A DNA stretch of 35,430 nt, taken from assembly GCF_001186125.1 (NCBI RefSeq), contig NW_014039856.1:13710-49139 (forward strand), in the 5' to 3' direction. The DNA is from Sphaeroforma arctica JP610. Taxonomy: Eukaryota. A model generated the notes under the pieces. It was not told the origin of the DNA, did not search any database, and saw only the letters and a list, made by a program, of their open reading frames with translations. Made by a program: the position numbers and the translations under genes. Of the stretch, positions 7,914-34,971 are shown piece after piece (within the stretch, counting starts at the first letter, position 1; each line of letters starts with the position of its first letter).

Positions 7914-8315
7914 TGAGTGGGGGCTGTGCAATAGCCAGGCCTGCATATTAGATTCTATACATATAAACGTTGCTTTAGGTAAACTAGGTTTACCAAATGG
8001 TTTCTAAAGGTTTTATTCATAAATTCCTTTTCTATTATTCAAATTAAATATTTGGATTGCCTATTAAAAGGCCTATTAATTTCCACTGATATATATTTGA
8101 GTACTTCAGTAGCGAAATGGCTTAACTGAAAATATGTTCTTAGGGACTAGTAGCCTTGCCAAGTTTTTCCTCCGAGTAGCCAACCAGATTGCCAGTCTGA
8201 TGTAGGCAAGCCGGCGATTCCTGATGCATGGCTAGTCATCGGTTAGTGCAATGGCTAGAGACTTCAGCAGTATACTCCTTTTCAATCTTTTTCCCAAAAG
8301 ATAGGATTTTTAAAG
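7914..8315 (+). repeat. Polypurine tract and 3' LTR of family A copy 1
   Basis: agctgagtgggggc followed by TGCAATAGCCAGGCC (7927), homologous to 29106 onward (tatttggat, attaaaaggcct, aagataggatttt blocks). Right end not resolved. Confidence 0.75.
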
Positions 8316-9434: not shown

Positions 9435-11535
9435 TGTAGCATCTAGAGGGACCAGATAATCAAAAAGACAATACAAATCCTAAATCCGCAGGATTACCAA
9501 ATACTGAATTTTGGGATTCGTATACAAATATTAAGAACAAGATTCACGAGAAAGGCTATCACCCGTCATAATCGACAGCAGCCCCATTGTTACAATCGGT
9601 CCCTTGATAGACTCGAATAGATGTACACGTACGTTTTAATTAGGCTCGATGCACACTCATCATATGCCAAACTGAAACCAATAATGGACAAATCAGCGGC
9701 AACCATCGCAAGGACACTAGGTTCAATTCCAAAAAGAACAAATAAACTAGTACATTGAAGGGTATGTACCATATCTCAAGAACCAAATTCATAAGAAGGG
9801 CTATCATCCGATAGAATCCACGGACGCCGCATTTCACGACGATAAAATTCAAGTGGGCACTACCGGTCCCTTGATAGACTCGAATAGAGGTAACACGTAC
9901 ATTCTAGTAAGGCTCGATGTACACTCATCATAAAAAAAAAGATGAGACCAGTGATGGAGAAATCAGCGGCAACCGGCGCAAGAACGCTATTTCCAATCAT
10001 GTATGAACAGGGCTTCCCACAAGACATAGAAACGGAACAGGGCACCTAGTGTCCAGAGCATACCAATCTAGTACGTAATGGGAGCCAATGAGTGATAACA
10101 CAGAGACCTCACACCCTTATTAAAAGGAAACTCGTTGAACAAAATCCAAGCAATTGGTGTTCTACATTTTCCTCTCGTTCTAGTGGATCCCAACATAAAT
10201 TTATCAAAAAGGTATAGAACACTTCGGTTCAATATGTACTTTGGACGGAGATGAGACGAAACCACCTAGTTGATTTCCAAACATCAGTAGACGCACCTGG
10301 CACAAGAGCACCATGGGAATCGCGACTGGTAAATCTAAAAGAGTCGATCATACCAAAGCTAGACACGAATGCTGCGCAATACCTAAAGAAAATGCGCTCA
10401 ACGTATCACCGAAAATACCAAAAAGAAGTACGTACACTCCCAGGAAGGGAGCAATGTAATTGTTTGTTGTCAAGGTGAAATGAATAAAATGACAGCAACA
10501 TGGCGAAACATACAAAATAGTAGGCAAGGGGGCCAACGGGTATTTTGTTTGTAACCTTCACGAATCTAAAGCCTCAGAATATCCTAACTAGGTCAGTGAT
10601 GAAATAGTCGGACTAGTAAAGAAGGCCAATGCTTCGAAGGAATTTACTCCCAACAGCCGCATACAACCAGCTGAGGACGCACAATACAGATGGGGAGCGT
10701 ATCTGGACGTATGAAACAGACATCACAGAAGTTGATGTCTTTACACATTACCGGCAACGCACCGGACGCAAGCGAAGACAACCCCAATCGACGAAATCAA
10801 CAGCAACGAGCACTGATGAACGATCAGCGAGCAACAGGAAGTGCACGCTTAACCGAGTTTTACTGATACTGAAGAGCACTCCCACTTTTCTCACCTTGAA
10901 GCATGTTCCGCCCACAATCCAGAAGGATATGTACCAAGGACTCGGTTGTAGAACCATACACTGTTGAGATGCGTTTTCTCAAGTCAAGTTGATATCAACC
11001 GAGAGCACAGGTCAAGACTGTGCGTTGTTAAGAAATTCCATCATAAAAATAGTTTAATTAGGACTATATACGTATTAGAATAGATAATAGCGGCAAGTTT
11101 TTTAATCTTAAACCCCTAAGGGACAAGTTTTTCCATATACAAAACTCCAACTTCAAAAAAGTTCAGTACTGTAATATCCTACGCAGGCACAGAAGTACAT
11201 AGTAAGGGGAGTGTAGTAACTAGAGACCAGATTAGCAAAAAGCAATACAAAACTCACAACTGTGCTATTATCAATTATTGAGTTTTGGGGTCCGAATCCG
11301 ATATTCCTGATATTAGAGTCATCAGAAATTGAGTTGGATTACCGGTAGATGATACAGGGACACCGAGAGAGAAGCACTCAAGTAGAATCAGAGTCTAGTG
11401 TAGAAACACAAATTATAAAATGGAGCCTCAATGTGAGTCCTTCAGCCTAGGACTTTTACCTAGCTGAGACAATCGTACTTAAAGAAGAGGTCTATTGTTT
11501 CCTTTGGTCGTATCTTGTCAGTTGCTCTCAAACTT
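9435..11535 (+). mobile_element. Ty3/Gypsy family B remnant: LTR start, duplicated integrase N-half, integrase core/C-terminus, PPT, 3' LTR
   Basis: TGTAGCATCTAGAGGGACCAGATAATCAAAAAG (9435) vs TGTAGTAACTAGAGACCAGATTAGCAAAAAG (11212), the latter preceded by PPT AAGGGGAG (11204-11211). Translated GPLIDSNRGNTYILVRLD, KSAA, EQGFPQDIETEQG, a frameshifted AYQSST/NGANE, NMYFGR, and chromo-like DGERIWTYETD. Confidence 0.8.
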
Positions 11536-11539
11536 AACA

Positions 11540-13160
11540 TTCTGATACTGCTCTGATATACACACAGCCCATACGATTGTAGCAAGGACTAAATCCTTTC
11601 AGTTTATCAGCGGCCAGCCCTACTGAGTACGTACAAAAGCAATTACGAACAGATAGTACTGCCTTGTCGCCTGTACCATGGGAATTACCTACAATGAGTA
11701 CATAGATCACATTTAAAAATCTCATCACACAAACCTTAATACATCACCTCTCACACACATGAGCAACACCTCCTTGTTCTTTTCATCTAGAACCTACTGG
11801 CTACGTACAAAAGGGATCACTGACAGATAGTACCACATTGTCTCCCGTACCGGGATACATCTTTACCCGTAAAATACGTAGATCCCATTTTATAGTCTTA
11901 TCGCATAGACCATAGTACATCACACCCTTCACGCTCATGGGTAGTACCTTCTTGTTCTCTTCATCTAGAACCTACTGAATACGCTTAAAAAGAATCATTG
12001 TCAGATAATACTACCTTGTCGCCCGTCACCAGGATCCTTACCTATAATGAATACACAGATCACATTTATAAATCTCATCGCATAGACAATACACCACCAT
12101 TCACGTACACGAGCAGCATCTTCTCGTTCACTTCATGTAGGCAGTTGTAGTTGTAGTATAGTTTAAATCCACACTCCCACGAGTCTATTGCTCGCGAGCT
12201 CTCTGTGTATATCCGGACGCATCGAAGTTCTGTTTGTCTGTATTCGTAATGTTAGCTAACTTGTTAATTACAGTATAATCATATGAAAGAAATTCACACT
12301 TATTAAAGTGCAAGTGCACATCTTCCTCTATCTGTATACGTGAAGCCAACAGTGCCTTGGGCGCTACTAGTAATACATAGTACCTCTTCAAACACGCCAA
12401 ATAAGTACGCTATAGGATTGTTGTCTTCGTACTCTTTTGGTATCTTGATAGAATGTTCGCGTGAATATTGTATATGTTCGAACATAATTCTACGAAGTAA
12501 AGTTAACCATTTCCTTTTCGAATTCGATACAAGCGGTCCTAAACCGATATTGTCGCTCCATACTAGTGTTCACGGAAAGGCTGTGATATCATGCATATGT
12601 CCACTTATCCAATTTCTGACTTGCTTCGTATTCATGTCAAAAATGAGAGGGGATATCTTGGTGTGTGCCTGTTCGATAGTAAGTTACAGTAATATGATCT
12701 TTTGTTCGTGTACTATCTATAGAAAAAGTATGAATTGCTCGGCGAATGTACGGTATACTTGCTGTACAAAGAATATCAATTTAGTATAAATTGGTTTATC
12801 TAGATACGCATCTATTAATGCTTGGTTACTTTTGTGCAGCATCTGTAAACCTTTCAGCACACTGGCGGGCTGGTGTGACTGCTCTAACAGGTTGCACAAT
12901 TTACGTGACTGAATCTTAGTTTTGTTTCGGTAATAAGTCTTCGTCAATAGTGCTGCTATAAGAATTACTCTATCAACCCAACTACGCACGATGCTATGCG
13001 GAATACACTTAAGCTTCGTAGCCGAATCATCCAATACAATCTGGACGGCCGTGGGTGTGCGCTATGATACTTATAATACCTTTGCAAACCCAACTTGCCA
13101 ACGGTTGTCGATCACAAGATTAACACAGCCTAGCACTGTATAGTCGGTGTCATAGGCCAT
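11540..13160 (-). pseudogene. Decayed ORF of unknown function (~530 codons) with three C-terminal ~58-aa tandem repeats
   Basis: ATG at 13160 is in frame with track ORFs 13034-12717 and 12485-12303, separated by scattered stops. The repeat units translate similarly (LDEENKxVL...GTGDxVVLSV.D.FCT). Confidence 0.5.
11619..12140. repeat. Three diverged tandem units of ~170-180 bp
   Basis: Units start cctactg...tacg at ~11619, ~11792 and ~11971 and end ttgttct.ttcatctagaa; all share cagatagtac, ttgtcgcc.gt and agatcacattt blocks. Confidence 0.9.
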
Positions 13161-13369
13161 TATTTGTCAAAATATCACTCCGTTTGCAAAGCTTAAATTT
13201 ACGCCTCAGCCTCCGGTGGTGCTACTATGTGCTCGATTTCCAGGTCATTACTACAAAAGCTTTATGAACATTAGGGCTCATTCTATATTGTATGCACGAA
13301 CAACGCAATAACAAGATTATGTTCGTCAAAGTCTTTAAAAGGTGGTTGTTTTTGTAGTTGTGTGTTTAT

Positions 13370-13696
13370 AGTGTCGAGCGTAACTGTAAAGGTACGACCG
13401 AAGAAAACAATGCACCTCTTCTCAAGTACGCTTCTCTCAGTTAAGAAAAGCCCAAATTGAGAGAAGCGCACCAATTCTTCAGTTGTGATTTTTATTTAAT
13501 ATTTCACGAGACTCAGATTTTCACTTAAACGTTTCTCTCACGCGGGACTCCGGTTAGCAGGTACCAGTTTCTTGCCGGATTCCTGACGAATCTAGTATCA
13601 GGAATATAGTATTTATGTCCAGAGCAATTTTTTTAGGTATTGGGAATCCTGTAGAATTGGGATTTAGATTTTTGGCTTTTTGGCTTATCTAATACA
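13370..13696 (-). repeat. Inverted, diverged copy of the family B LTR
   Basis: Reverse complement matches 11212-11535, e.g. atattcctgatactagattcgtcagga vs atattcctgatattagagtcatcaga, and cgtacttgagaagaggtgcattgttttcttcggtcgta vs cgtacttaaagaagaggtctattgtttcctttggtcgta. Confidence 0.8.
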
Positions 13697-13956
13697 CGAG
13701 CTTCCCACCCACCCTAAACTCGTCGAATACTAGAAGCACTGTTTTGATACCATTGTCGGCACTCTGTATCTTTCTCGGCGACGAAGCACAGTCTTGTAGG
13801 AAACTGTAACTACGTTCGAGCACTATCTCTGATGCATGCTGCTGTGCAATGTGTGTGTATTTTAAACGTGCGTCCATAGCTACAGTCCCTGCGAAGTAAG
13901 ACACATACATCAATACGCATACAGTCTATCAATGGTTTGAGACCTGCAACTCTCAT
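13697..13956 (-). pseudogene. EXO1/XPG/FEN1-family 5' nuclease N-terminal fragment, copy 1
   Basis: MRVAGLKPLID, frameshift, then YVSYFAGTVAMDA...HASEIV...NGIKTVLLVFDEFRVGGK: the XPG-N pattern MGV.GL.P / VA.D / GI..V.VFDG. Truncated by the LTR. Confidence 0.7.
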
Positions 13957-15341: not shown

Positions 15342-18300
15342 CTATGCCTTTTCAGCCTTAGGATCGACCCACAAATCGTCTACAACGTCGAAGTGGAGCT
15401 GGTTGTGAAACTCCAATTCATACATCTCATCAAAGCGTATATCGCATATGCGGCATATGTACTCATCCTCTTCTATCTCGGCCTCAGCCTGTGCCTGCCG
15501 CTCGGCACTTGCATATGCTCTGGGCGATACTTCCCGCCCATCCAGGTCCACCGTCACAGTTCCTTTTCTATTCCGACGACGCCGGCTACTCACTCGCATG
15601 CCATTCGCTCCCACTGCTCGCTGAGTAGATTCCTTTCCACTGCTTGACTCCTTATGCTTCTGCACGACCTTCACCTTGGCTTTTGCCACAGGCGCAACTC
15701 CAGCGCTCCCACTTGCAGTTTTACCGGCTTCAGAATTCGCCTGTTCACTACCTGTGTCTTTCGCTTGCGCATTCACATCGGCGGCTGATAACGTCTCGTG
15801 GGTCCCTACAAATTGAGCATCGGACGTCTCAGACGCGGTTTTGGTACCAGATGCTAGATCTTGTACTGACATCGGTATATCCGTCTGACCATGTGTGTCA
15901 CTGACCGGCTGAGCGGACTTCTGAGCAACCCTAGCCTCCGCTACATTGTCGGTAGCGGTGACCTGATCACTGAACGGGCACTTACTAGAGGCTTTCTTGC
16001 CATTCTTTCCCTTATCGCCACTTCTACGGCTGGATTTCTGGGTATGTGCCTTGGGTAGTGGTCTGACCTTTGGTTGTGGCCGGGGCAGTTGGTATAGTGC
16101 GTTGCCAGACCCATTTGCGGCCCGAATTGCCTGAGCCTTATCAGACCTCTTCTTCTGAGCATCAATTCCTAATGACGAGTCTTTCTGAGGCTCACTTCCT
16201 AACGACGAGTCTTTCTGAGCCTCATTCACCACTGCTGTTGTAGCCGTTTTGGGGTTTTTAGAACCGGGAGTATCCGAGTTAGTTTTACCTTGAACAGTTG
16301 TATGTGATACCTTCTCCATACCCGCAGACACTGCCTCCTGAACGTATGGTTGTACCTGGCGAGATGCATTTGCCCTGCGAGATGCTCTGGGCGACCTCTT
16401 TCTCCCCGCCGCGTGTGGTACACTGTTGGCCAGGTCACGCCCGTCAAATCTCGCTTGCCCAAGGTGTTTTTCAGTGTTAACTTTCTTGTCTGAAGCCTGT
16501 TGTACGGGAGCAGTAGCTGTTCCGTTGTCCACATTCTCTTTCGAGTTTCGACCGTCTGCTTGCCGTTTGCGACGGCTATCCACTCCATCTCTAAGATGTG
16601 GTTGTGTCTGTTGTTTGCTAGGACTGCTTGCGGCCCTCTTAGACTGCACTGTGGATGAGAGTGCCGTGTCTGTCTGCGTTTCCGCCACTATAACTTCTAT
16701 TGCGGTACCTACAGACGCCCTCGAATCACCTGCAGACATAGATACCTCAGCGCCATTGTGTCTATCAGGTAGGTCCATCGCACTCTCCAGTGTTTTACGG
16801 AGCCGCTTGCTACTACTATACCGAGCCGAGCCACTAACTTCGCTGTTTATATCGGCCGTCCTTCCTCGTTTCGCGCCACGACGGGTGGCCCTTGGACTGT
16901 ACTTATGGGCTGACACAGACACAGCTACCGTCGGTACCTCTGTCACAGGCCCATGTGTATCTCGTATCTCTCCCAGAGCTACCTCTTTGCTCGTGGGCTT
17001 CTCCAGCTCTGACTCGATACCAGTATTCACAGGCCCTTCCCCCGCCGCACTGGCATCAGCTCTAACATTCGGCGAACCCGAGTCACCGTCTACGTCCATA
17101 GCGGTAACACCTGTGGTCTCCCTAGACGTGCTCACCGTTTGACTATGCCGCTCAGTCTTCTCATCCGCCACAGCATCCCCACGCGACTGTACGGGTAATT
17201 TGGCTGCTTTCTTAGCAGCCTGTTTGGCCTTTCGAGTCTCTCCAGGCCTATTTGGCCTATTCGGCCGGTTTTGGAAGATCTGAGCGGCCTTCTCATCTGG
17301 CAGGGGTGCCGTAAGATCAATCTCAGGTGCAGCCCCGTGAGCTCGCGTGGTGCGGGGCTTGTATTTGGATTTGTGGTGTACCTCCTTTTCTACTACCGGT
17401 TGTGCTGGCACCGATTCTCCCACAACAGATGGAACTATCTTGTCCTCGACAGGTTGTGCTTGTGATTTCTTCTCCCGCTGCGCCTTCTCCTCTATGACTG
17501 GTTGTACCTTTTTCTCTACTTCTATCACGACCGGTGGTTGCTTCACTGCGACAAGTGGCGCTCGCGACTTTCCTGCAGCAGAAGGTACGGTGTCAGTGAT
17601 CGCCGGAGACACTCCATTCCCATACAACCCGCTCGATTTGGGCTTAGACAGTGCGCGCCTGTGTCTCATATCCACGTGTCCGCTTCCCTTTGTTATCCCG
17701 GCAGCCTTTCCCCCCTTCTCACTATTGTTGGGTGTGAGTGAACTCACACCACTCCCACCAGGCCCCGGGCTCAATTTGCGCCACCCAGGGCTCTTTTTCG
17801 GTGTCAGTGGATGTGCACTTTTTCCACCATATCCAGGGTTCCGGTTACCGGCATTGCGCAACCGCCCGGTAATTGCACTTCTAGCCGCTTCAGCGCGTGT
17901 CTGTCGGGGTTTGTACTTGCCTTCTGACTTATGGTTAACGTCTTCTCTGCCGTTTGCTTTTGTGGCTGTAGTGCTTATCGTCTTAGCATTGTGAACAACA
18001 GTGTGGTGGTCTGCATTGCCACTAGCGGGTCCACGAGTGTGTGTTTCCTGCACATGGTCTGCGGGAGCTTTCCCTTCCAATTCTCGTCCCGATGTGCGAG
18101 GCGGTCTCTCAGATTGCGATGTCACAGCCGCACCTTGACGCCGAGACGCACGCGTGGGCTGAGTACTGTTGCTATTGCGACTACCCCCTCCACGGCCGAA
18201 GTCTTCCTCTAAACGAGCCCCTTTCAAAATGCTGGCTCCTTCCATGATACTGGTATCCCCATCCTGGATATCGGCCATACCCATACCTTGGGTCACCTGA

Positions 18301-19376
18301 CCCCTGGTGTCAGATCCTCTCATAGTTCGTCGTGCGTTGATGGACGGAATACTCTCAGTGGTATAGGTATTCTGAGCTTCTCTGAGTTTGGCTGTTTCTG
18401 CAACGCGACCGCAACGCAGCGCACAGTTATCCTTGTGGCCATCTCGCCGCCAGTTGGTTCTCTGAAATAGAAATATTCATGGAGGAATATTTGGATAAGA
18501 ACACTGCATTGTCCATGGTACAGATATTAATGGATAGGATGATTGGGTAAGCACACTGAATTGCGAGATACTACCTGTACTCGAGCTTTGCGTGTAGGAC
18601 TTTGGCTGAGCACAATAGAATATATGAGCAAGCTGGAGCAAGTGTAACGAGATCAGTGCTATAAGTAGAACACGCACCTGATAAAAGCATATCTACGCAA
18701 AAGAAATAAATTGGTTGTAAGTGCAATCTAACCGGGACTGCACGAATAATAAATTTCCTAGCATTAATATTGACTCCACACGTGTGCCCAAAAAAATCTC
18801 ATATAAACGATATCTGTCTGCATGTTTAACTAAGCAGAGGTTCGCGGGTGGCAAAAGCGTAGCAGAATGCATCCGATGCCATGGGGTGGGAGTACATGTG
18901 AACAACAGATATCACCAGTCAAAATCATACAGGCACACTTACAGTGTACCTATAGATTCAAGATCGGTAACGAAACCGTATATATCATACAAGAATGGAA
19001 AAGTAAAACATATAAAACCTATGATATGAAGAAGTGAGTACCCCAATATACTCATTTCAGCATGCGGGTAAACACAGGGGCCTTTGGCACAGGTACAAGC
19101 TACGCTGATAGAAACTTGTATATTCAATATATGCGAATGAGTCGACAAATACGAGAAGCACACAAGAACAATCCGTGGCACATGAGAAAATGAAAATACT
19201 CCTGTTTCCATAGCCTGGAGACAGGGCGCCTTAACGGGGAGACAAGCTTCATCGCACATTATAAATAGAATTCAAGGACTCTCTCGCGTACATGGAATCA
19301 TTGAAGCAGTGTGTGCCTACGAGGACGCACGTGAATTTTGAGACTATACACTTCAAGAGGTAGCTGATGAGAAGAT

Positions 19377-20226: not shown

Positions 20227-21129
20227 TCTGTACAGATGTTAGGTGTTGTTCCGATATAGCTTACTTCTAATATTAGACGGTGCCTATTTTTTTTACTCTG
20301 CTCATATGTCGCCTTTCAGTGTATTGCCTGTGATAGTATACGAGGAGTGTCGCGTTCGTCTATTCAGCACCGCTTCGAAAGCCGATTCGCAGTGTAGTGC
20401 TTCATATCTGTGTGCAGCTACCTATCTATTCATAGTACACTGTATATATTCACGAGTCCATGCTTTAGTTCAATATTACTGTATTAGTATGCATATACTG
20501 CAACAGGGAGCTTAGGTTGCCGGCTCAATCCGTTTATGTATAGTATCACGTAAAGATCCCCAGTTTTACACGTACGTGACAGTTATTTGAAGGCGGCACT
20601 ACAGCAAATATTTTCGGGTGGCTTCTGACCTTCCGTTATATATATATATATATTTATATATAATATAGATATATAATTAAAATGAAACACAGCCTTGATT
20701 TAAAACAAAATATAGACTAAATATAACACACATTTAATTGAGCAGTTGGAATATATATCTATAAATCGAGATACAATTGCTGCCAAGTTTCAACTTTAAT
20801 TACAGACCTAGTAGAGTAAACGACATTTTGTATTAAAGTTCTTTTTCGACACGGGTGAATTGTGCTTACAATTATTAGATTGATTCCGCAGAAATTGGCG
20901 CGTAATCCTCACACGACACAAATACCGATATTAGACAGACATCATGATATTCTATAAATAAAAAAAGTACATCTATGACTATGAGTCTATGACTATATAC
21001 ATAAATGTAAAAAAAAATAGTGTTCAATTTTTATAGCCTTCTCTTGTATGACATTAAATGAAGGCCATGTTAGAAGGCTATGTCAATTTAGGTATGTATT
21101 TACCGTTATTTAGGTTGATAGTCGTGTCA

Positions 21130-22225: not shown

Positions 22226-23845
22226 TCACCTCATTGGCTTCTTGGCTAGATAAAAGAACATCGGTGTGAACAGTTTTTGTTCCCCACCGGCAACAAGACC
22301 ATGCGCTGCCGTTTCGAGTATGGCAGCTGTGCGCCCGGTGCCCTAATCGTACATTGAACGCGGGTAATCAATTGTAATCAGTAGCTGACAATAGCCAAAC
22401 TCAATATCGATAAACATACCAGCCATACCTACTCGCGGCTACTCTCAGGTAAAAAGCATACCTTTAAGTATATAGGCTACAATTTGCACAGAAAAAGGAT
22501 TAGATGTGTATTGGGGGTCACCACTAGCAATAGCTGCATACCTCAGGGGCGAGACCGAGCTTCTCCATGGACCAAATCGAGTACTTCGTAACGAACCTTC
22601 CAATCATTGATGATCTGAAATTACTCAAAGAGTAATAGCTACCTTGAAAGGGCTCATACCATGGTATGGTGGCCGTATCCGCAAGATCAGCAAATTCGAT
22701 AATCTGTGTCAACCAAAGTAGGATAAATGTGTGGGGAAGATTGAACGCTGAATACTCGCATTATTTCTTCATAGACTAATCAAAGAAATCTTCTATAGGT
22801 AAACACTCTTATTAAAATATACACATACCTCAAAACCAGCCTTCTTCAGAGCTTCTAGACATTCCTTCGTCGTGAGAACATCAGGCAATCCATTGCCAAT
22901 CTCTATGTCAGATTTGATCTTGACGTGTTCGATATTGTCGGGATCAAATCTGTGCGTCATGCACCAGTCGTATCCACCAAAGCACTAGGGATGGGGCACA
23001 AATCAAAAGCCAACAAGACAGAAGTAAATATTTTTCGGTGCTTGTTAACTAATGGAAATTTACATCCCAGAATAACTTAAGGCGATCTATCTTATAAAGA
23101 CGCACGTTGAAGCAGAGTATTGACATTAAGAGTCCATTGCATATGTCTTACCTGACCGGGCTTCAGTAAGCGAAAAATCTCAGCATAACAGGCAAACTTA
23201 TCGGGGGCGTGACAGGTGGCTTCAATCTGGTAGATGGCGTCGAAGGAGCAATTGGGCATGGGAACATGCATAAAGTCTGCCTTCATGAAATCGCAGCTTT
23301 TATCATGACCCGATTTGACATTATAGGCGGTGCCACGCTGAATCTACAAAAAAAGAGTTCAACAATGATTACATATCCGAGATTATGAACAGCTATAAAC
23401 TTTAGTGCAAATAGTGTGAGCATCGCATTTTGGAGTCAAACAAACATTCTGTAGAGTCACAACTTCTTGTTCTACTCACCTGGTATGCATTGTTGTTTAA
23501 ACCAGTGATGCTAGCGCCGGAGAATGATGCGATCTCACGTAACGGGCCACCAACGCCACAGCCGACATCTAGAACCTTCATACCTGGCTCCAGTCTCAAT
23601 TTATGTGCCAAGTAATGTTCGTGGCGTTTTATGCTTTCATTGTGTGTTTCGCCTATCAACCGATGCGCAAAATGGAAACTCGTGCCCCAACCCCATTCAT
23701 AGAAGTCAGTGGCTAGATCATAATACTTGTTAACCATGTCGGCATACATATCGCGGCGTGCTTGTATGTCACCGCCATGTTCAGTGTGGTATTTTTCGTA
23801 CGCACCAATTTTTTCACTGTACTCTTCAGATACGTGTCGACACAT
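22226..23845 (-). CDS. SMT: Sterol 24-C-methyltransferase (SMT/ERG6 family), ~330 aa; exons 23845-23480, 23343-23152, 22984-22829, 22703-22542, 22342-22226
   Basis: [71 protein letters not shown]. Four GT-AG introns join in frame. A short additional 5' exon is possible (acceptor-like tatatag just before the ATG). Confidence 0.95.
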
Positions 23846-24645
23846 TGTGCTATATATTTAGTGCAATTAAAGGGAATCGATTCCTTAAAGTTTTCTATTA
23901 AAAATGAGCGGGCAAATGTTGTCGCAGACTTCTCTTGTACATATGTCGAAAAGAATGAAGATTCACTGAATTGCAATTTCAAGGTGCTCAGCCGCTCAAG
24001 GCCTTTCGGCTTACAGTTGTATTTATGTACCCGCTGCCGCTGGTGCGGGGAAACTACTCTCACGTAGAGAAGGCCCGGTGCTATTATTGCTCTCGAATTC
24101 TCGATATATAAATATATTTAGATTATAGTGCGGGCGTAGGCCGTATGGACTACGGTGGCATCATCCGAAGCAAAAAAGCATAAATATCGTACCATCGTGC
24201 GTTTTGATGACCCACTGCCGGTTCTAATATGATTGGTTAGTGTTATCTGGGCGCCCAAAATGTCTTAAAACCCCACGTAATCAACTATTCCTGGACAAAA
24301 TGACAGAATTTAAAACAAATAGCAATATTATTCTCAGATTTTAGAAATTCAGAAGGCTATGAAAATTGAAATTATTTTATACCATAGCCAAGAGAGACCT
24401 AGCTAGAACATAGTCTTCTGTTCTATTTTCAGAAGGCTATGATATTACATACAATGATTTTTTTGTGTAATTTTCCGAAGTGCAAATAATTGCCGCCAAT
24501 GAAATTATTTTATATCTTCCATAGATGCTTGACTGTTGTTTTTACAATTCAAAAATTGGTTTTATTCTGTTAAACTTTAGAAGGCTATGATTCTGTTTTA
24601 TAAATTGGTTTGTTGAAAAAAGAGAAAACAATAGAAAAAGAAAAT

Positions 24646-24722: not shown

Positions 24723-24878
24723 TTTGTTTAAAAAAAACCCCCCTGTAAAAAATATGTGGTGAAGGGCGGGGGGGGGGGAGGGTCTGGTTTTAAACTCTAC
24801 TTTTTTTAACTCGTTGCAATTGCATCCAATAAAATAAATAGATCACAATGTACGTATAGGAGCTGTAAACATTTAAAC

Positions 24879-25452
24879 ATGGCATTTACAGCCCGGACTT
24901 TGCCGGGATATGGCAGAGGGTAGCCGTCCCGTTGTTGTAATTTCACAATCATAACGGGAGCCCGCCCAAATAGCTTGTACGATAAGTGACTGTAAAATAA
25001 CTTGCAAATAATTTTACAACGGATATTGTGTATTTGTGTGTATATAGGCTCAGTTACGCATGTGCTTGCCCCCTTTTCATATGAAGACGGCTACATACCT
25101 TTTGTTGTTATGAACTTCGTCTTCGGGAGTGACTGGGACATCGAGCCAGTTGGATGTAGATTGTGTAAACAGGATTACATTCCAGTAGAAGAGCTGAGTG
25201 CATACCATCTATGTCGTCTGATATGGCATTACTCTTGTCACGTATCTTGTGGAAAAGGTCATGAGTTTTCTCAGGATAAAAGAGACCCTAGGCTATGGAA
25301 TAGTGTACGGTTGGGATGCTGTATGTTGGATGTAAAGCTAAGGCACAGATTATACAGATTATTTGCAGGCTGTACATACAGTAATACGGACGTACATCGA
25401 TCACCACGAGATATTGAATCTCTGATCAAGAAGACCAAAATTGCGAAGGCAG
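24879..25452 (+). pseudogene. Non-Gypsy Cys-rich coding remnant (degenerate PHD-like finger) fused in frame to family A pol
   Basis: GCRLC...AYHLCRLIWHYSC...LWNSVRLGC follows PHD spacing with two Cys replaced. In-frame ATG at 24879 is followed by stops. Homology to family A begins only at 25453. Confidence 0.4.
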
Positions 25453-26680
25453 ATTTTGCGGACAAAATCATGGATCTGATTCTAGTAAATAAGAAGATAA
25501 GGATCACAGATTGGGCAAAATACCGCTTTAACGACGGATATATCAGCCTTGACTTAACCAAGGTAGACTTTACGCAGTTAAAGTGTCCCTCAAGGAACTA
25601 TGTATCCTGGAGACACGAGGCTGTGGTAAAAGATCAAGTTGAGAAATGGCTAGCAGATGGTGTGATAGAAATTAACTATCAACAGACGCTAGTTAACTTG
25701 GCGCTGCTAGCCGTAGACCAACATAACTCTGACGGATCGTTTTAAAAAGTCAGAGTATGTTTAGATATGAGCCCGATAAATAAATTATTCGACACATAGC
25801 TTTCACTTACCTCGTATTAAAGAGCTACTGCGAAGGATGGAAGGTGCTACAGTGTTTACAACTATAGACCTTACACAAGGATACCATCAAATGCAGGTAT
25901 ATGAACCCCACCGTAAATACTTTAGCTTTACGTGGAAAGGCAAACATTACCGGTTCAGAGGTGCACCTTTCGGGTTGCACTCTTTACCAGCATTCTTCCA
26001 ACAAGTAATGGAAGAAATGTTTACAGACATGCCTAACGTGCAAGTCTATATAGATGACATTGCCATCTTTTCTAAGACTAAGGGCGAACATGCCGCATTA
26101 GTCAGACGAGTCCTTAAGAGACTCAACGAACAAAACTTCACGATTAACGAGAAGAAATGCCACCTCGCAATGAGCGAAATACATCTCTTTGGCTACCGTA
26201 TATCTAGGGAAGGTATTAAAATCGACCCCGGTAAGGTGGAACACCAGTTAGATTGGCGAACCCTAACTACAGGAAGAGATGGCAAGGACCAGTCGTTGGC
26301 GTGCCGTTTGAAATAGCAACGGACGTCTCCGACTTAGCCCTAGGAGGAGTAATATATCAGGTTATAGATAACAAACCTAGATATATACAATTCTTTTGTC
26401 GAGCGATGAATGCTTCACAGTTCAATTATCCAACTGTTGAACAAGAGCTATTAGCCATAGTGACAGCTCTAACACACTTCCGAGATTACGTATACGGAAC
26501 AGCATTTACGCTGATGTGTGATCAGAAATCTTTTCAATATATGAAAGAGATGAAACCCGACTCGCAATTACTGAGTCGCTGGCATGATACAATATCAAAG
26601 TTTCATTTTGATATAAAACATCTGCCAGGTATACATAACCATTTACCGGATATATTATCACGCTTCGTACCAGACTTTTA

Positions 26681-27130
26681 ATAAATCCGCACGTGAGTTA
26701 CTAGCCACTGACTGGAAGTGCAATCCCAGGTGGTTTGAACTGGCTCAAAAGATATATGGGCCACATACCATAGATATGTTTGCTGCACATCATACTGCAC
26801 AACTGTCGAATTACAGAACTTTAAATCATCCTATGGGAGACGCCTTTCAAATAGACCTCTCCCAACATAATGCGTGGGCTAATCCACCATGGCAGTTTAT
26901 TGCCCAGCTATTAAATTATGTTCATATACATAAAGCTACCATCACGTTGTGTTGCCCATTACGGAGTTAAGATCCATGGCTCAATAAATTGATCAGCATG
27001 ATTCAATGCGAGCCAATATATTTAGATAGGGAAGTAGATACTTTCTTATATCAGGGTACCCGAGCCGTACAGAAGACGCCATGGAGACATACTTTTATAT
27101 GTCGTATAGGTTTCATTGGAACAACCAAAT
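26681..27130 (+). pseudogene. DNA N6-adenine methyltransferase domain (DIRS/Dam-like) of family A copy 2
   Basis: One frame: ATDWKCNPRWFELAQKIYGPHTIDMFAAHHTAQLSNY...GDAFQIDLSQHNAWANPPWQFIAQLLNYV...TLCCPLRS*DPWLNKLISM...PWRHTFICRI; NPPW at 26881-26892. Confidence 0.9.
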
Positions 27131-27636
27131 GAACCCCTTCTGAGACCTTCCTTAACAAGGTCAAAGAATCAGAGATTCCACTCTCTACCCAATTGAACGT
27201 TAAGCAGTTCAAAGGCAACACAGCATTTAACGTATGTGCACAAGAAATACAATCTACTAACGACACTGTTAAGAAGCGTCAGTCTCTAGCTAGGACTCTG
27301 TTTAATAACATAAAGCCTAAGCCCGAGGTCTTTCAAACCTCATTTTTAAAGGGATTAGTGAAAGACAATCCTGAAGCGTATACACCTATAATGCGACTAT
27401 TTAATAAGTCAGGTGTATCCAACGCACATGAGCGCGATTCTGACACTCATGCAAAAGCAGGACAGGAGTCTGAAAATACTACAGACTTAGAGACCACGCA
27501 AATGGATTCTCAACACCCTACCTTTATTCTGGAAGAGTGGAAGGATAAAAACATTATTGCTTGGCTAAAGCAACAGCATAAGCTGAAGCACCAGAACGTA
27601 GTAGAAGCACTCAAAGATGCTAAGCGACATGGGATC

Positions 27637-27656
27637 NNNNNNNNNNNNNNNNNNNN
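27637..27656. other. Assembly gap (20 N)
   Basis: Run of n; followed by ~390 bp of AT-rich sequence with no integrase similarity before integrase resumes at ~28043. Confidence 1.
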
Positions 27657-29105
27657 TAAGTACTAAGTGTTCATGACCACATGCCTAATTTGTAGATAGA
27701 CATAATAACGTAAGTCACGTTAATACATTAGCTGATATAAATAAAGTTCCATCTGAAGAAAAGTTAAAAAAGAAAAATACTTATTGGATTTTGGAGATTG
27801 GCGGGAGGACCAAAATCTATAAGTAGTAGTTCGGAGATTATAAAATTTAGTTTATAATATCCTACATCTACTAATGTCTCAAATAGGTCCAAGTAGATGA
27901 GTCATACCAAATACTCAGGCTATTGGAGCCATCAAAGTGAATTTAGAACACTTTGGGAATATTGGAAAAAGAGCTTGTATTAAATTATTTAAAATACAAA
28001 TAAAAACCAATGTATTATCTCAATTGATCTTGATATTTTAGACTGACCGGAGGCCGTATTTCTACATAGCCATATAAGCCGCAAACGCAAGGCGCGAATG
28101 AAACGCGCCATAGAAGACTTAAGTTCTTTTTGCGTACAGCATTAACGGATGATGCATATGATTGGCCGTACCACCGTCAGTGGGTGCAAACACAGATGGA
28201 CGTATGTGCTGATCCGGTTACAGAAACTACACCCGCTCACTATTTTCGTGGCAGATATAGTGAGTTACAAATCCCTTTTAACAAGGACGAACCCAATCAC
28301 CATGAGTTACCATGGTTAGAGAAGGTCCAACGTATTTATAGCGTTGTATATCCTTGCTTGCGAGAAATACGCAATATAGCCTTATTAAAAAGGCAAAAGC
28401 GTTGGAACACTACCAAGAAGATAGCAGAGTATCAGGTTGGTAACAGAGTTAACATCCGGCAACGTAATTCCGATACTACTGTATTAACTTCTAAACGGGA
28501 ACGTACGAATGGTTCTAGTGCGCTTAATATAGGCACAAGTCGTATTCCGACTACAGAGATTATACTCGCAAGAAGACATGACTCTAATGACCCTCTTGAT
28601 CGTTCTGAATTTAAAAACATTATATGGAGAACGGATAAGGGAGGCTATACATACTATCGTACACGCTTTATAGACGGTACAATAGCTAAGTTGACTTCAG
28701 ATACTTTCGATAACCAAGACTATTTAAAAGCCTTTAATCGAAAATGACGTAAACGCCTGCATAAGTCACAAGCTGAAAAATATAGCATGTTTCCATCGTC
28801 TGAAGGAACGGAAGTTAAAACTTATTCGCCTACAGCATTTATCCCGAGCCTTAATGCTCATCCTTCATATGTGCTTAAGACACTGAAGCGTAAGGAACGT
28901 CCAGTCGACCACCACGGACCTACTGGACCTAAGCCCAAAACTCACAGGGTAACCGAGAACACTTAACTTCTCCGCCTGAGAAACACTAACTATATGTTAT
29001 GCTACTTAATGTTTCGACTCGATTTTTTCTTTCTCGTTTTTTGACTCATAATCAGCTTGAGTGAGCAACCTGCTTCTCTTGGGTCTCAAAGCTGGGTGGG
29101 GGCTG

Positions 29106-29545
29106 TGTAATAAGCCGGGCCTCCACATTAGACTCTTATGTATAAACGTAATTTTCAGCAGTACGCAAATTATAAACGTACTCTTAATAGTACGAAGAAC
29201 TTAAGTCTCCTAAATGTGCTCTTAATAGCACGAGGAACTTAAGTTTCCTAAAATGGCTTTTAATGGTTTTATTAATTAATACCTTTTCCATTAACATATC
29301 AGATATTTGGATGAGGCCATTAAAAGGCCTCAGTAAAATACCAAACATAAAAGAGTTGGTCTAGTTCTATTAATTGAGCTTTATTTACTTTCAAAACATA
29401 TCTGAATACTTCGGTGGCGAGATGGCTCAACCGAATATAGGTTTCTATGGACTATTAACGCTACCTAGAGTTATTGGTTAAGACAATAACTAAAGACGTC
29501 AAGAGTAATTTTTCTTTTCTTCTAAAGATAGGATTTTACGAGTCT
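29106..29545 (+). repeat. 3' LTR of family A copy 2, with internal ~38-bp tandem repeat
   Basis: Starts TGTAATAAGCCGGGCC just after the PPT; near-identical to the reverse complement of 31341-31072; unit gtactcttaatagtacgaggaacttaagtttcctaaat x2. Right end unresolved. Confidence 0.85.
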
Positions 29546-29591: not shown

Positions 29592-31341
29592 AATCGATTC
29601 GTCAAAGTTATGTTGGTCTGCGGCTAGCAGCGCCAAGTTAACTCGCGTCTGTTGATAGTTGATTTCTATCACTCCATCTGCTAGCCATTTCTCAACTTGT
29701 TCTTTTACCACAGCCTCGTATCTCTAGGATACATAGTTCCTTGAGGGACACTTTAACTGTGTAAAGTCTACCTTAGTTAAGTCAAGGCTGACATATCCGT
29801 CGTTAAAGCGGAATTTTGCCCAATCTGTGATCTTTATCTTCTTATTAACTAGAATCAGATCCATGATTTTGTTCGCAAAGTCAGGTATTAATGCCTTGAC
29901 TGTGTCTGACGGGGGCTTATATGGATTCAGACAATTATCGTCTTATTGAATCTTTAATGGATCTATGTTATTTGGTAGACCCGTTACGGTTATACCTAGA
30001 GTGAGTAAATCGCTCATTCCGACTATAATGTCGTACTTCTGTGACACCTTAACTATCACAGCTTGGGGGCAGTGATATTCCTACTATTGGCCAAGGAGAT
30101 TTTATTATCTGTGGCCATGGTATCACACTTTGCAGTTTTATCATCAGCTAAAATGAGGTGAGTTGTTTATGTTCTTCTTTCGATATCTTTCATTAATGCA
30201 AAGCGATCGGATATACATGAAATTTCTGAACCAGGATCAATCAACGCAAGGATTTTATTTCCATTGCAGTATACAGGGATTATTACACGCTCATCTAAAG
30301 AGTCGTTGTATTGTCTGTGTAACGATTGTACCTGGTAGTACCTTCACTCCAACTTAATGTTGGGCTTTTTGTCACAAGACTTAGTGTGATAGCCATTGGT
30401 CTTCTCACACTTGTCGCACTTAATAGGAAAGTGTGTACAGGTGGATGCATGTCTGCCATTCCAATAACCGTTAGGGGTTAATTGGTACATGTCATACCCA
30501 CACTGTGCGTCGGCACATTTTTTAATATCCTTAAATGAAGGTTCCATGTCCTTCGCTCCCGCGCGTGCCCGTTTATTGGGTCGCGTGGATAGAGTGGAGT
30601 CGCGAGCACGTGTATGTTGGGGTCTCTCGTTTGAGATCTGCCTGGATACGTACCCGTAATCGGTGCGCTCCCGCGGCTTCTTAACAGCCGCTTTTCCCTT
30701 CGCTGATACTCGATGTGCTGGGAAAAGGGTGAATACAGTACCATAAAACTGTTCCCACGTAAGTCGGGATAGATAAAACTTTGTTTCATGTCCCTTGTCT
30801 CGAGCCTCAGTCGCGTGTTTACGTCGCAACTCGGTGTACAGGCTCTCGCGGTCGTTATTCCATATGTTCTTACAGAACACGTGCATAACCAGGAACTCGT
30901 ACCATCGCTGTGCCTTGTCCTTTGTTATATCTGGACGTTTCAGGTCAGCATCTAGCTTCAGAATATAACTCTGAATGGGCGTGTTCTCAACTGGTTCAGT
31001 TAAAATTGAACTCAGTCCAGGGCTACGCATGTCTTTACTTAACAAGGATGTATCCAACCAACACACGGCAAAATGGAAAAGGTATTAAATTAATAAAACC
31101 ATTAAAACCCATTTTTGGAAACTTAAGTTCCTCGTGCTATTGAGAGTACATTTAGGAAACTTAAGTTCCTCGTACGTATCATACATACTTGTCATTTTTG
31201 AAATAAATAATATTATTCCTATTAAGAGTACATTTAGAAAACTTAAATTCCTCGTACTATTAAGAGTACGTTTATAATTTACATACTGCTTAAGAGTACG
31301 TTTATAACATCGAGTCTAGTGTGGAGGCCCGGCTTATTACA
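29592..31341 (-). mobile_element. Ty3/Gypsy family A, copy 3 (inverted): partial 5' LTR, gag, protease, start of RT
   Basis: LTR start attaca at 31341; gag ORF 31066-30344 with CDKCEKTNGYHTKSC; in-frame ILALIDPGSEISCIS; 29592-29882 is the reverse complement of 25453-25742. Confidence 0.92.
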
Positions 31342-31452
31342 CTCGTAATTACTGAGTCGCTGGCATGATACAATATCAAAGTTTCATTTTGATATAAAAC
31401 ATCTGCCAGGAATACATAACCATTTACCGGATATGTTATCACGCTTCGTACC
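31342..31452 (+). mobile_element. ~110-bp fragment of family A RNase H C-terminus
   Basis: Matches ~26561-26671 with 3 mismatches by eye. Confidence 0.9.
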
Positions 31453-32011
31453 TCTCACAATACAGAAGCATATAATCAATGTCACTTCAGATACAGTAAT
31501 CAACCATACCGATTTGTTGGAGGTAGACGATCTGCTGTTCAGCTCCTTGTGGGGCTAATATAAACGGCAAATCGTTCTCAGCTAGCATGACCATTATCAC
31601 CCTTGCTGCTATTAAATTGTAAGCTCCGACTGTAGTCTTGCACTCCTTATACAAGCTTTCTCCCTCCTCGCCTACATCTTCTTAAAGTATTTTTGCTACT
31701 TTCTTTAGCGCATCTGATCGGTTAGTGGTTCGCGATGCATTCACTTGCTTTCCACTCACCCGTTTCCCATCGAATACTGGTAGCACTGTGTTATCATTTC
31801 CCCAACTCGCAACTCCGGGTATCGTACGCCATATTTCTGTCTTGAAGAGATCATAACAATCACGCTTATCCTTCGAGCTAACTATTTATGTCGCATGCAT
31901 GGTCTAAAATTTATGAATCATTATTGACATGATACCACTGTCTTCGATCCCTGTATATTCTATGTGAACAAAGATTTCACCCATCAATGGCAGCAGACCG
32001 TCTACACCCAT
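31453..32011 (-). pseudogene. EXO1/XPG/FEN1-family 5' nuclease (N and I regions), copy 2
   Basis: Single frame with 4 stops: MGVDGLLPLM...HAT*IV...VLPVFDGKRVSGK...PFILAPQGAEQQIVYLQQIGMVDYCI*SDIDYMLL, matching MGV.GL.P, VFDG, AP.EA..Q...L...G.VD and DSD motifs. Not in the ORF track. Confidence 0.85.
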
Positions 32012-32337: not shown

Positions 32338-32425
32338 GGGTTCTCTGGGTCCTCTCTGGGTCCTCTCTGGGTCCTCTGGGATCCTGGGTCGGGTCCGGGC
32401 CTGAGAGTCTGGGACTCTGGGGCCC
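32338..32425. repeat. Short GC-rich tandem repeat (gggtcctctct)n
   Basis: Direct reading. Confidence 0.7.
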
Positions 32426-33090
32426 TAGACATAGCCTTCTGTTCAATTTAGAAGGCTAGGGCTTGTGCATAGCCCTCTAAATTACATATAAAGGGCCATG
32501 GCTCATGGCCTGTGCCTGAGACTCTGAGGCACTGTCCGACAGCCACTGTCCAAACCCCATTTGCTGATCTGGCACCCACTACGAGTGAAACGCCACTGAC
32601 ACGTATCATGACACTCCAGTCTCCAAGCACGGCGTACTGCGTAGTGAACGGTCAGTCGTATTTAAAATCGGCGCAGAGGCACAGAGGGCCAGAGGCTTAG
32701 TGGCATTTTTAAATACTTTTGATTTAAACTCTGAACTCTGAAGTCAGTCAGTCACTTGTGTGACAGGCTGGAACCTGGAGCTGGTTACTCTGCTTTTTTT
32801 AATTTTTTGCTTTTCTATTTTTATTTTTCGTCACGTATGTGTGTAAATATTTACAGTATGACATTGATTTTACAAAACCAAATCATTTATATTATTTTTT
32901 ACAGAGCCTCCAAATTCCAAATGAACTTCATAATATTCATTCAATTAAATAAATAGTAATTTTTTTTTACATCACTAATATGACGGTCAAAGACATCCAA
33001 AAGACAGCCAAAAGGAGGGCTGTCTGATAGTCGCTGAACATAGTTTGTGTAAACAGCGTATACAGCCAAAGCGGGGGAAACAATTATTTG

Positions 33091-34971
33091 ATGAGAACAC
33101 TGGATTCACCGTACATACCTCGAAATAGTGGTTATATCAACAACAATGCCGATATGAGTAAAACAGAATGCACGCAGGGTGGCACGCAGGGTGAGACTTC
33201 TCCATTGCTAGGAGGCAAGGATGGCAGCATCGAGAAAATTGTGCACAGCTACGGGGTGTCTGACAATGTTGAGCACTCCTCTACACCTACAAAACATAAG
33301 ACAAAAGCAAGTTATGAAAATATCAATTCCCAAATGAACCACTTACAACCTACGGATAAAGGAGGAAGAAATTTGATTGATAGAGATGCATTGAAGTTAA
33401 GCAAGGAGGAGAAAGCTGTGCTGGTCATACAGCGATTTGTCCACAAATGGCGGTTTAAGAAGCATATGAGAAGCGCTTGTGCCTTCCGAACCCTGGTAGA
33501 AGCCCCTCCTCAACCGATAACCATGGTTACGTATGTGAAGGCGGTTGTCACGCTGGTAGGGCTGGCTTTAATGTGGCTGGGTCTGTGGACACAGTTTGAT
33601 GTCGGGTTATGGCAGAAGGATCTATTTCCTAATACTTTTGTCAAAGATACCATATTCCTAGTCGTTGGTGTTTTGTTGCTCTGTTCAGTAGACTGTTACT
33701 ATATAGACGGTGGTATGGAAGGAACCCTGTTGTATCCGGAACCTAGATGGCTTATACGGGCGAACTCGTTTCTACTACGGCGTGGCGAGATGTTCTACAG
33801 GTGTGTAATAAATATCGTCGAGGTTATGCGCTTGCTAGCGAGCCATTTGGGATCAGCACTGGTGTGGTTTGCCTTCTACGACTTAGTGGATAAGGTTTGG
33901 CAGGAACCAGGTGATCGTAAAAACGGAGTCGCACCGTTAGAGTACACATTTGACACATACACGTATACGATTGATGATGTGAACTATGTGGATATACTCC
34001 ATTTGTCGGAGGCCTTCAGACCCGCCTACAACGTGCTGTTGTTCTGCCTGGGACTGGGCATCACTGTTTGGACCGGGTGTTTCCTTACAGTCACTGGCAT
34101 TGAACCTGAAGATGACGATGATTCAACGTACGTTGATCTGACCAATCCATCGAGCGACCACTTGCAATTGGCTGCACTCACTTTGTTGTCTCTTTTTGGC
34201 CAGGCGCTCATATGGGTAGGGGCAAATAACTTTTTGGAAATGGATTTGGGCTGGGAGTGCATATGGCGTGAGTTGTTATATATAATAATTGGGTTTGCGG
34301 CATTCATGCTCTCCGATTCATTTATATCGAACGGTTGCATCGAAACCAAAGATACCCCGGAGCAATATACGGAAGACAGCATAGCCGACGAGAATGAACG
34401 AGAAAGTGCCGGCAAGAGTCTAGTAGGGCGAGATAAGCCCAAAAACACATCGAAGAAGAATCAGCAGACAGATGAACAGAAATGGGAAAGTGGTGATCTC
34501 TCTTTAAAATCTATTTACCTGCGCTCGATGCTCTCCTTGGTCGGCGCTGTGACGCACAACACAGCCATGTGGCAAATTGCTGACACATACATATACCCGT
34601 CGGCATGGGGTCAATGCTCGCACAACGGCACCAGCAATGACCCTGACTGGCCGTGCGCAAAGAGAGACTTGATGTACATGTGCATCGGTATGGTCATGCT
34701 AATTGCTACACGCACCGCTACCCAGGCTGTAGGTATCAGTATCAACCCTCTTTCCACCGCCCCAGGCATCGGGCAGAAGCGAACTAGTCGCGTGCGACGT
34801 ATGCGCAAGGAGCTGCTCCTGCGCAAGTATGTGAGTGCGCTGATCGACAATACATTGAAGTCTGGAGATAAACTGGACTCTTTGATCACAAATGGGTCTC
34901 GGAGAGAGTGTAAAAACAGGGCCAGGAGAAGCGGCCGGGAATTGAGACCGGCCGCGGAGAAGCTCGTTTAG
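33091..34971 (+). CDS. Multi-pass membrane protein, Fuseless-like, with N-terminal IQ-like motif (626 aa from the ATG)
   Basis: Uninterrupted ORF, about 8 hydrophobic segments in four pairs with LMWLGLWTQFD / LVWFAFYDLVD / LIWVGANNFLE / THNTAMWQIAD; AVLVIQRFVHKWRFKK. The CDS is solid; the family call is tentative. Confidence 0.8.
   Translation: MRTLDSPYIPRNSGYINNNADMSKTECTQGGTQGETSPLLGGKDGSIEKIVHSYGVSDNVEHSSTPTKHKTKASYENINSQMNHLQPTDKGGRNLIDRDALKLSKEEKAVLVIQRFVHKWRFKKHMRSACAFRTLVEAPPQPITMVTYVKAVVTLVGLALMWLGLWTQFDVGLWQKDLFPNTFVKDTIFLVVGVLLLCSVDCYYIDGGMEGTLLYPEPRWLIRANSFLLRRGEMFYRCVINIVEVMRLLASHLGSALVWFAFYDLVDKVWQEPGDRKNGVAPLEYTFDTYTYTIDDVNYVDILHLSEAFRPAYNVLLFCLGLGITVWTGCFLTVTGIEPEDDDDSTYVDLTNPSSDHLQLAALTLLSLFGQALIWVGANNFLEMDLGWECIWRELLYIIIGFAAFMLSDSFISNGCIETKDTPEQYTEDSIADENERESAGKSLVGRDKPKNTSKKNQQTDEQKWESGDLSLKSIYLRSMLSLVGAVTHNTAMWQIADTYIYPSAWGQCSHNGTSNDPDWPCAKRDLMYMCIGMVMLIATRTATQAVGISINPLSTAPGIGQKRTSRVRRMRKELLLRKYVSALIDNTLKSGDKLDSLITNGSRRECKNRARRSGRELRPAAEKLV

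What the first reader, a model, noticed from the sequence alone, without database searches (positions are those of the whole stretch)
31453..32011. Multi-copy, decayed, intronless EXO1/XPG-like nuclease family, probably mobile-element cargo
Seen: two pseudogenes 18 kb apart (13956-13697 and 32011-31453), neither called as such in the ORF track. They share family-specific motifs (HASEIV vs HAT*IV; VLLVFDEFRVGGK vs VLPVFDGKRVSGK) and a taactag acceptor-like site 15-20 bp before the ATG. Both are truncated by Gypsy sequence. Established: host EXO1/FEN1/XPG/GEN1 genes are usually low-copy; XPG-type nucleases are carried by Academ (AcademX) transposons and large DNA viruses. Inference: these belong to an unidentified DNA transposon or endogenous viral element. 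The free MGV.GL N-terminus differs from the internal XPG domain of AcademX.
Basis: partly seen in the sequence, partly recalled or inferred. Interest (0 to 1): 0.7.

Follow-up and report, generated by a model that had tools for sequence, protein, structure and literature searches.

The report
Dead transposon-type EXO1-like nuclease genes
The window holds two old, broken genes for an EXO1-like DNA-trimming enzyme that group apart from the ordinary EXO1 repair genes and are likely leftovers of a cut-and-paste jumping gene that carries its own nuclease, here in what is probably a single-celled relative of animals.

Summary
Both copies are real pseudogenes. Copy A (32011-31454, minus; 4 stops; Pfam XPG_I 4e-6) is cut by Gypsy DNA. 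Copy B is not truncated: it runs 13956-12309, interrupted by a ~330-bp solo-LTR-like repeat. A third copy is S. arctica SARC_12789 (55%). Contigs of public runs show no extra copies at 80% identity or more, so this is an old, diverged family, not a recent burst. In trees the three copies sit with environmental EXO1-like proteins that have a SAP and SWIM-like tail (96/93), apart from canonical EXO1 (AU p=0.009); grouping with giant-virus nucleases is disfavoured but not rejected (p=0.20). One close relative lies between 184-bp, 97% inverted repeats; a more distant one faces a DDE_Tnp_4 transposase. Best reading (0.68): dead accessory-nuclease genes of an ISL2EU/Harbinger-like (PHIS) transposon in which an EXO1-type nuclease takes the place of YqaJ. 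No transposase, ends or TSD survive in the window. The pairing was not found in 10 paper searches, but earlier notes of this scan report it in algae and diatoms; what this window adds is a likely ichthyosporean host.

The parts
31454..32011 (-). Copy A: pseudogene of an EXO1-like (XPG N + I) nuclease, first 186 codons, 4 stops, one catalytic Glu lost and the first Asp not aligned
   Evidence: one contig only, shared with the host gene at 33091+
31341..31452 (+). Gypsy RNase H fragment that cuts copy A
   Evidence: 97% identical to 26560-26671; very many contigs
13695..13956 (-). Copy B, 5' part (XPG N region), one frameshift
13363..13698 (-). ~330-bp dispersed repeat (TGT...ACA, likely a solo LTR) inserted in copy B; ends approximate
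   Evidence: 321-bp skip in frameshift-aware alignment; many contigs; sister copy
12309..13373 (-). Copy B, 3' part: XPG I motif, start of H3TH, then a tail with no match; 12 stops, 2 frameshifts
   Evidence: 53% over 30 aa to P0015
11211..11545 (+). Inverted sister copy of the ~330-bp repeat (not an end of the nuclease element)
24996..29330 (+). Decayed Gypsy LTR element with RT, RNase H and a Dam-like domain; part of the Gypsy cluster beside copy A
   Evidence: Pfam RVT_1 4e-27, RT_RNaseH 2e-27, Dam 1.3e-4; self-matches

Best explanation
The two stretches are broken EXO1-like nuclease genes that group with a distinct family outside canonical EXO1, and they are likely dead remains of the second gene of an ISL2EU/Harbinger-like (PHIS) cut-and-paste transposon. 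Shown: pseudogene state, family placement, an intact EXO1 active site and fold in relatives, SAP and SWIM-like tails, one relative between long inverted repeats and a more distant one facing a DDE_Tnp_4 transposase. Inferred: in the live element the transposase cut and pasted while the nuclease, held on DNA by SAP and SWIM, trimmed 5' ends or flaps at the excision or insertion site, the job that the 5'-to-3' YqaJ exonuclease likely does in animal ISL2EU. The elements entered this genome long ago, diversified (30-55% identity between copies), died, and were then overrun by LTR retrotransposons, which removed or hid the transposase gene and the ends.
For: Careful tree, 47 rows: A, B and SARC_12789 in a 19-row clade with 16 non-canonical relatives, 96/93; with 11 viral nucleases added, an 18-row clade at SH-aLRT 99. 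Held together with canonical EXO1: rejected, p-AU 0.009. Family profile beats EXO1 profile for all three: 108/84, 56/25, 32/13 bits. 7 core relatives and L009 keep all 8 active-site columns checked, with D-to-E at one; the model of P0017 matches human EXO1 best (E 1e-15, TM 0.83, rmsd 3.9) against FEN1 4e-9 and viral 1e-10. SAP in 3 of 13 non-canonical and 0 of 22 canonical hits. L001: nuclease plus a convergent 297-codon frame between 184-bp arms of 97% identity. L009: nuclease-SWIM facing an 889-codon frame that resembles DDE_Tnp_4 (atlas 0.94, 186 shared features; Pfam E=0.065) with 41-bp subterminal inverted arms, 76%. ISL2EU has a transposase plus an exonuclease ORF (PMC4482050, passages).
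Against: No transposase, inverted end or TSD was found in the window, nor a SAP/SWIM tail in either copy. Only 2 of 6 family loci extend past both sides of the gene. L001 has no DDE domain and its second ORF is THAP-like by eye only. L009, the one locus with a transposase, is on a long branch: inside the clade, outside it, and its tail does not match the core family's tail profile. A clade with giant-virus nucleases is not rejected (p-AU 0.20) and the atlas ranks a Nucleocytoviricota cluster first for P0017 (0.90). Relatives were chosen by their match to copy A.
Confidence: 0.68

Rival explanations
1. The copies are scattered remains of an endogenous virus (giant virus or polinton-like) that carried a flap endonuclease.
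For: Ichthyosporeans take up giant viruses and adintoviruses (PMC11244446, passages). Atlas first hit for P0017 is a viral XPG cluster, 0.90. AU test does not reject a clade with 11 viral nucleases, p 0.20. Virus-like loci L010/L011 carry an EXO1-like gene near the base of the family.
Against: That tree is 20.8 log units worse; all 11 viral nucleases score higher on the EXO1 profile than on the family profile; four scans of viral contigs with the copies or the family found no relative; no viral hallmark gene among 20 frames scanned or in 7990-12321; the fold is closer to EXO1 than to viral FEN1.
Confidence: 0.12
2. An old cellular EXO1 paralogue (with SAP/SWIM tail) of protists that was duplicated and lost in this lineage, unrelated to transposition.
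For: Single-copy depth, no element ends, position next to host genes.
Against: Relatives sit between long inverted repeats on small contigs of 0.5-6.3 kb; three mutually diverged dead copies in one species fit a mobile family better than a housekeeping gene.
Confidence: 0.09
3. Nuclease of another kind of transposon (AcademX fragment, Crypton or Kolobok accessory gene).
For: XPG-type nucleases travel with Academ (recalled; the paper is not held); Kolobok lineages swap accessory nucleases (PMC9587614, passages); the core clade's own transposase was not seen.
Against: Both copies and the relatives begin with the free Met-Gly of EXO1 and have no transposase upstream in frame; the one transposase seen is DDE_Tnp_4-like.
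Confidence: 0.07
4. Processed or duplicated pseudogenes of the host's EXO1.
For: EXO1 is the closest solved structure and 22 of 37 hits are canonical EXO1.
Against: One clade with canonical EXO1 is rejected (p 0.009); family-specific columns (H-x-x-x-x-x-H-A, AVG-AY, APxEAE) are shared with the non-canonical family. The host's own EXO1 was not in the tree.
Confidence: 0.04

Closest known systems
ISL2EU group of the PHIS (PIF/Harbinger-ISL2EU-Spy) superfamily (PMC4482050, passages read)
   Same: Two-gene TIR layout in relatives: DDE_Tnp_4-type transposase plus a separate 5' nuclease gene; size 4-5.5 kb; TIRs within the 6-259 bp range.
   Different: The nuclease is EXO1/XPG-type with SAP and SWIM-like tail, not YqaJ; the A|AT|T target was not shown; in this window only the nuclease gene survives.
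Eukaryotic EXO1 (XPG/Rad2 family)
   Same: Fold, free Met-Gly start, active-site acids and the K/R pair.
   Different: Separate clade; APxEAE instead of APYEAD; SAP/SWIM-like tail instead of the long disordered tail; dead here.
AcademX (recalled; Kapitonov and Jurka 2010, Kojima 2020, neither readable here)
   Same: A DNA transposon that carries an XPG-type nuclease.
   Different: There the nuclease is an internal domain of the transposase; here it is a separate gene with its own start.
Giant-virus flap endonucleases (Nucleocytoviricota XPG/FEN1, poxvirus G5)
   Same: Intron-poor XPG-family genes; such viruses are endogenised in ichthyosporeans.
   Different: Branch apart in the free tree, weaker fold match, no SAP/SWIM-like tail in the 11 sampled.

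Membership tests
XPG/Rad2 5' nuclease family, EXO1 branch | XPG N and I regions with acidic active site | tested here: met
   Pfam XPG_I 4e-6; 6 of 8 checked columns kept in A, 7 of 8 in B
Canonical EXO1 orthologues | One clade with eukaryotic EXO1 | tested here: not met
   AU p=0.009; host's own EXO1 not available
ISL2EU (PHIS) | DDE_Tnp_4 transposase with HTH and THAP | tested here: inconclusive
   None in the window; DDE_Tnp_4-like in distant relative L009; THAP only by eye
ISL2EU (PHIS) | Second ORF with a YqaJ exonuclease | tested here: not met
   The second ORF is XPG-type in all loci; Pfam finds no YqaJ
ISL2EU (PHIS) | TIRs, usually starting GG | tested here: inconclusive
   None around A or B; 184-bp arms in L001, outer end cut by the contig; GGCCCC...GGGGCC candidate ends and 41-bp arms in L009
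ISL2EU (PHIS) | A|AT|T target, AT duplication | tested here: inconclusive
   L009 flanks read AAT and ATC one base off the candidate ends; no empty site available
AcademX | XPG domain fused behind an Academ DDE transposase (recalled) | tested here: not met
   Free Met start in A, B and relatives; no open upstream frame
Endogenous giant virus | Viral hallmark genes nearby | tested here: inconclusive
   None in 20 frames or 7990-12321; rest of window not scanned through stops
Endogenous giant virus | Nuclease groups with Nucleocytoviricota XPG | tested here: inconclusive
   Apart in the free tree; constraint not rejected, p 0.20
Multi-copy mobile family | Several dispersed copies with shared ends | not testable with these tools
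   No genome held; three diverged copies known; no extra at 80% or more

The most novel reading that the evidence does not exclude
ISL2EU-like transposons with an EXO1-SAP-SWIM partner once lived in a unicellular relative of animals, so this pairing spans algae, diatoms and Holozoa, and the YqaJ exonuclease of animal ISL2EU is a later swap of one 5' nuclease for another: this branch of cut-and-paste transposition would need its own 5' nuclease.
Probability: 0.4. Interest if true: 0.62.

Novelty: new variant of a known kind. Interest (0 to 1): 0.4.

Why it matters
The role of the second gene of PHIS transposons is stated to be unknown (PMC4482050, passage). If unrelated 5' nucleases (YqaJ, EXO1-type) fill the same slot, that points to a 5' trimming step in their transposition and makes it testable with an intact relative. 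The window itself holds only dead fragments; its value is to extend the family to a likely ichthyosporean and to warn that such 'EXO1-like' annotations in protists need not be repair genes.

Tried and rejected
Whole-genome copy count: no genome held. Word-index searches with copy A found nothing; the family alignment found 4 proteins. P0008, top hit, is a tandem-repeat artefact and was dropped. Viral contigs, phages and prokaryote contigs hold no family member by these scans. P0006 (tail of B) has no Pfam or PDB match and was not examined in the atlas. A 43-bp inverted similarity (near 24855-24898 and 32222-32180) as a possible end of element A: 22 of 500 shuffles score as high, rejected. Upstream regions of A and B share nothing beyond chance, nor with ends of L001, L002, L009. 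The 11211-11545 and 13363-13698 repeats as TIRs: rejected, one lies inside the gene and both are copies of a dispersed repeat. A 34-nt intron in the start of B (seen by eye): not needed, the frameshift reading keeps the family spacing. 'Intronless' is weak evidence: the sterol methyltransferase gene has introns but two neighbours have single frames of 646 and 1044 codons. THAP identity of L001/L002 frames: no Pfam or PDB match, model pLDDT 49, best Z 3.0. Expression: no RNA holder listed; the two guessed-RNA runs with small assemblies had no contig on the copies; no conclusion drawn. A and B are not sisters in the free tree (13% of bootstrap trees), but one clade of A, B and SARC_12789 is not rejected (p 0.79). 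Paper searches; none listed a paper joining ISL2EU/Harbinger with an XPG/EXO1 nuclease (59 and 121 returned 0). Repbase Reports and subscription journals are not searchable; supplements (family tables of PMC4482050) were not read and could list such elements.

Full report
What is there. The window is eukaryotic, about 40% G+C, with a spliced sterol methyltransferase gene, two long host frames and two decayed Gypsy clusters. The closest protein to copy A is Sphaeroforma arctica SARC_12789 (55% over 82 aa), and the Gypsy element carries a Dam-like domain as described for ichthyosporean DAM-LTRs (bioRxiv 10.64898/2026.05.21.726589, passages), so the host is probably an ichthyosporean (inference). 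No genome is held for the window.

Copy A (32011-31454, minus) is 186 codons with 4 stops and no frameshift, matches Pfam XPG_I (4.3e-6) and human EXO1 (3e-4), and ends at a 112-bp Gypsy RNase H piece. Copy B starts at 13956. The insert is bounded by TGT...ACA and has an inverted sister at 11211-11545; I read it as a solo LTR (inference). A and B are homologous (DNA score 163.5 against 73.7 +/- 9.3 in 200 shuffles; 45 of 150 residues). TAACTAG is present as described but occurs 6 times against 6.6 expected.

Copy number. Laying contigs of public runs at 80% likeness, one contig alone covers A (3 of 4 runs; the same contig reaches the host gene at 33091+) while the Gypsy pieces beside it draw hundreds to thousands of times that summed depth. 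The coding parts of B behave the same (3 of 4 runs), with a small partial extra at 13653-13874. Contig depth is not a copy number and older copies would be missed, but a young expansion is unlikely. Three diverged copies are known.

Family. The unindexed search gave 37 hits: one repeat artefact (dropped), SARC_12789, 22 canonical EXO1 and 13 non-canonical proteins from environmental assemblies. The latter share family columns with the window copies; 3 of 13 have a Pfam SAP domain against 0 of 22 canonical ones, and the full-length ones end in a Cys/His SWIM-like motif (by eye; Pfam SWIM 0.006 only for L009). In a careful 47-row tree the three copies lie in a 19-row clade with 16 of the 19 non-canonical rows (96/93; left out: P0008, P0082, and the near-duplicates L001, L004, L005, L007); joining them to canonical EXO1 is rejected (p 0.009). 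With 11 viral nucleases added (quick tree) an 18-row clade remains (99) but L009 drops out; joining the copies to the viral rows is 20.8 log units worse but not rejected (p 0.20). One clade of the three copies is not rejected (p 0.79). Relatives keep the active site and the model of P0017 (core pLDDT 80-90, tail under 50) matches EXO1 best.

Context of relatives. The metagenome scan confirmed 11 of 231 candidates: six family loci, three canonical EXO1 in an AT-rich eukaryote, two virus-like loci. Four family contigs end in or near the gene. L001 has the nuclease and a convergent 297-codon frame between 184-bp arms of 97% identity, the right arm cut by the contig end; it has no DDE domain. L009 has the nuclease-SWIM gene facing an 889-codon frame whose features match DDE_Tnp_4 clusters of diatoms (0.94; Pfam 0.065), with 41-bp subterminal arms. 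This is the ISL2EU layout (transposase plus exonuclease gene; PMC4482050, passages) with an EXO1-type enzyme in place of YqaJ. Weak points: L009 is distant and unstable in trees, its tail does not match the core profile, THAP is not confirmed, and the window has no transposase, ends or TSD (only 7990-12321 was scanned through stops with Pfam).

How it likely worked. The transposase cuts and pastes; the nuclease, anchored by SAP and SWIM, trims 5' ends or flaps at the donor or target site. EXO1 and YqaJ/lambda exonucleases both act 5' to 3' (own knowledge), which is why a swap makes sense. None of this was tested. The copies here are dead and were overrun by LTR elements.

Known and new. Ten paper searches listed no paper on this pairing; seen in passages only: PMC4482050, PMC9587614, PMC11244446, PMC5751038 and the bioRxiv preprint; the Academ papers are recalled (not held). 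Repbase could not be searched. After my own context results, earlier notes of this scan showed the same pairing in green algae and diatoms (15 notes, at least 4 genomes); they are unchecked, and no sequence link to this window or to P0017 was found. Verdict: a real feature, a new variant of a known kind of transposon, present here only as dead fragments; interest 0.4.

Noticed in passing
window 24996-29330 and 5335-8074 (+): Two Gypsy elements with a Dam-like domain after RNase H (Pfam Dam 1.3e-4 at 26617-26970), fitting the ichthyosporean DAM-LTR lineage of bioRxiv 10.64898/2026.05.21.726589.
   Followed up: partly
window 11619-12140 and 9525-9997: A ~176-bp tandem repeat (3 copies, 72-75%) just behind copy B, covered by one contig only, and a ~250-bp duplication further on; origin unknown.
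   Followed up: no
window 21034-21080, 24351-24587, 32432-32458: A recurring hairpin motif (TAGCCTTCT...AGAAGGCTA), 7 half-sites, upstream of the sterol methyltransferase gene and of copy A; 11-bp tandem repeats at 32342-32377.
   Followed up: partly
window 32038-32027 and 11211-11222: The 12 bases just before copy A's leader equal the first 12 bases of the solo-LTR-like repeat; similarity goes no further.
   Followed up: partly
window 22226-23857 (-): Spliced sterol C-24 methyltransferase-like host gene with GT-AG introns of about 100-170 nt.
   Followed up: partly
window 33091-34968 (+) and 15342-18476 (-): Two host frames without a confident Pfam family: a 626-aa membrane protein (in NCBI/UniRef/EukProt) and a 1044-codon low-complexity frame ending in a C2H2-like motif.
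   Followed up: no
L010 1-4999, L011 1-12677: Gene-dense, 28% G+C, virus-like loci with an EXO1-like nuclease and an Arg-rich-start protein that recalls small-virus capsids (by eye); the nuclease sits on a long branch near the family.
   Followed up: no
L002 3070-4611 (+): The SWIM-like region runs on in frame into a THAP-like motif, hinting at a fusion of nuclease and transposase parts; the contig ends there.
   Followed up: partly
P0065 (cluster of P0023): An 814-aa EXO1-like/SWIM-like protein is filed under a Sphingorhabdus MAG on a 6.3-kb contig, probably eukaryotic DNA in a bacterial bin.
   Followed up: partly
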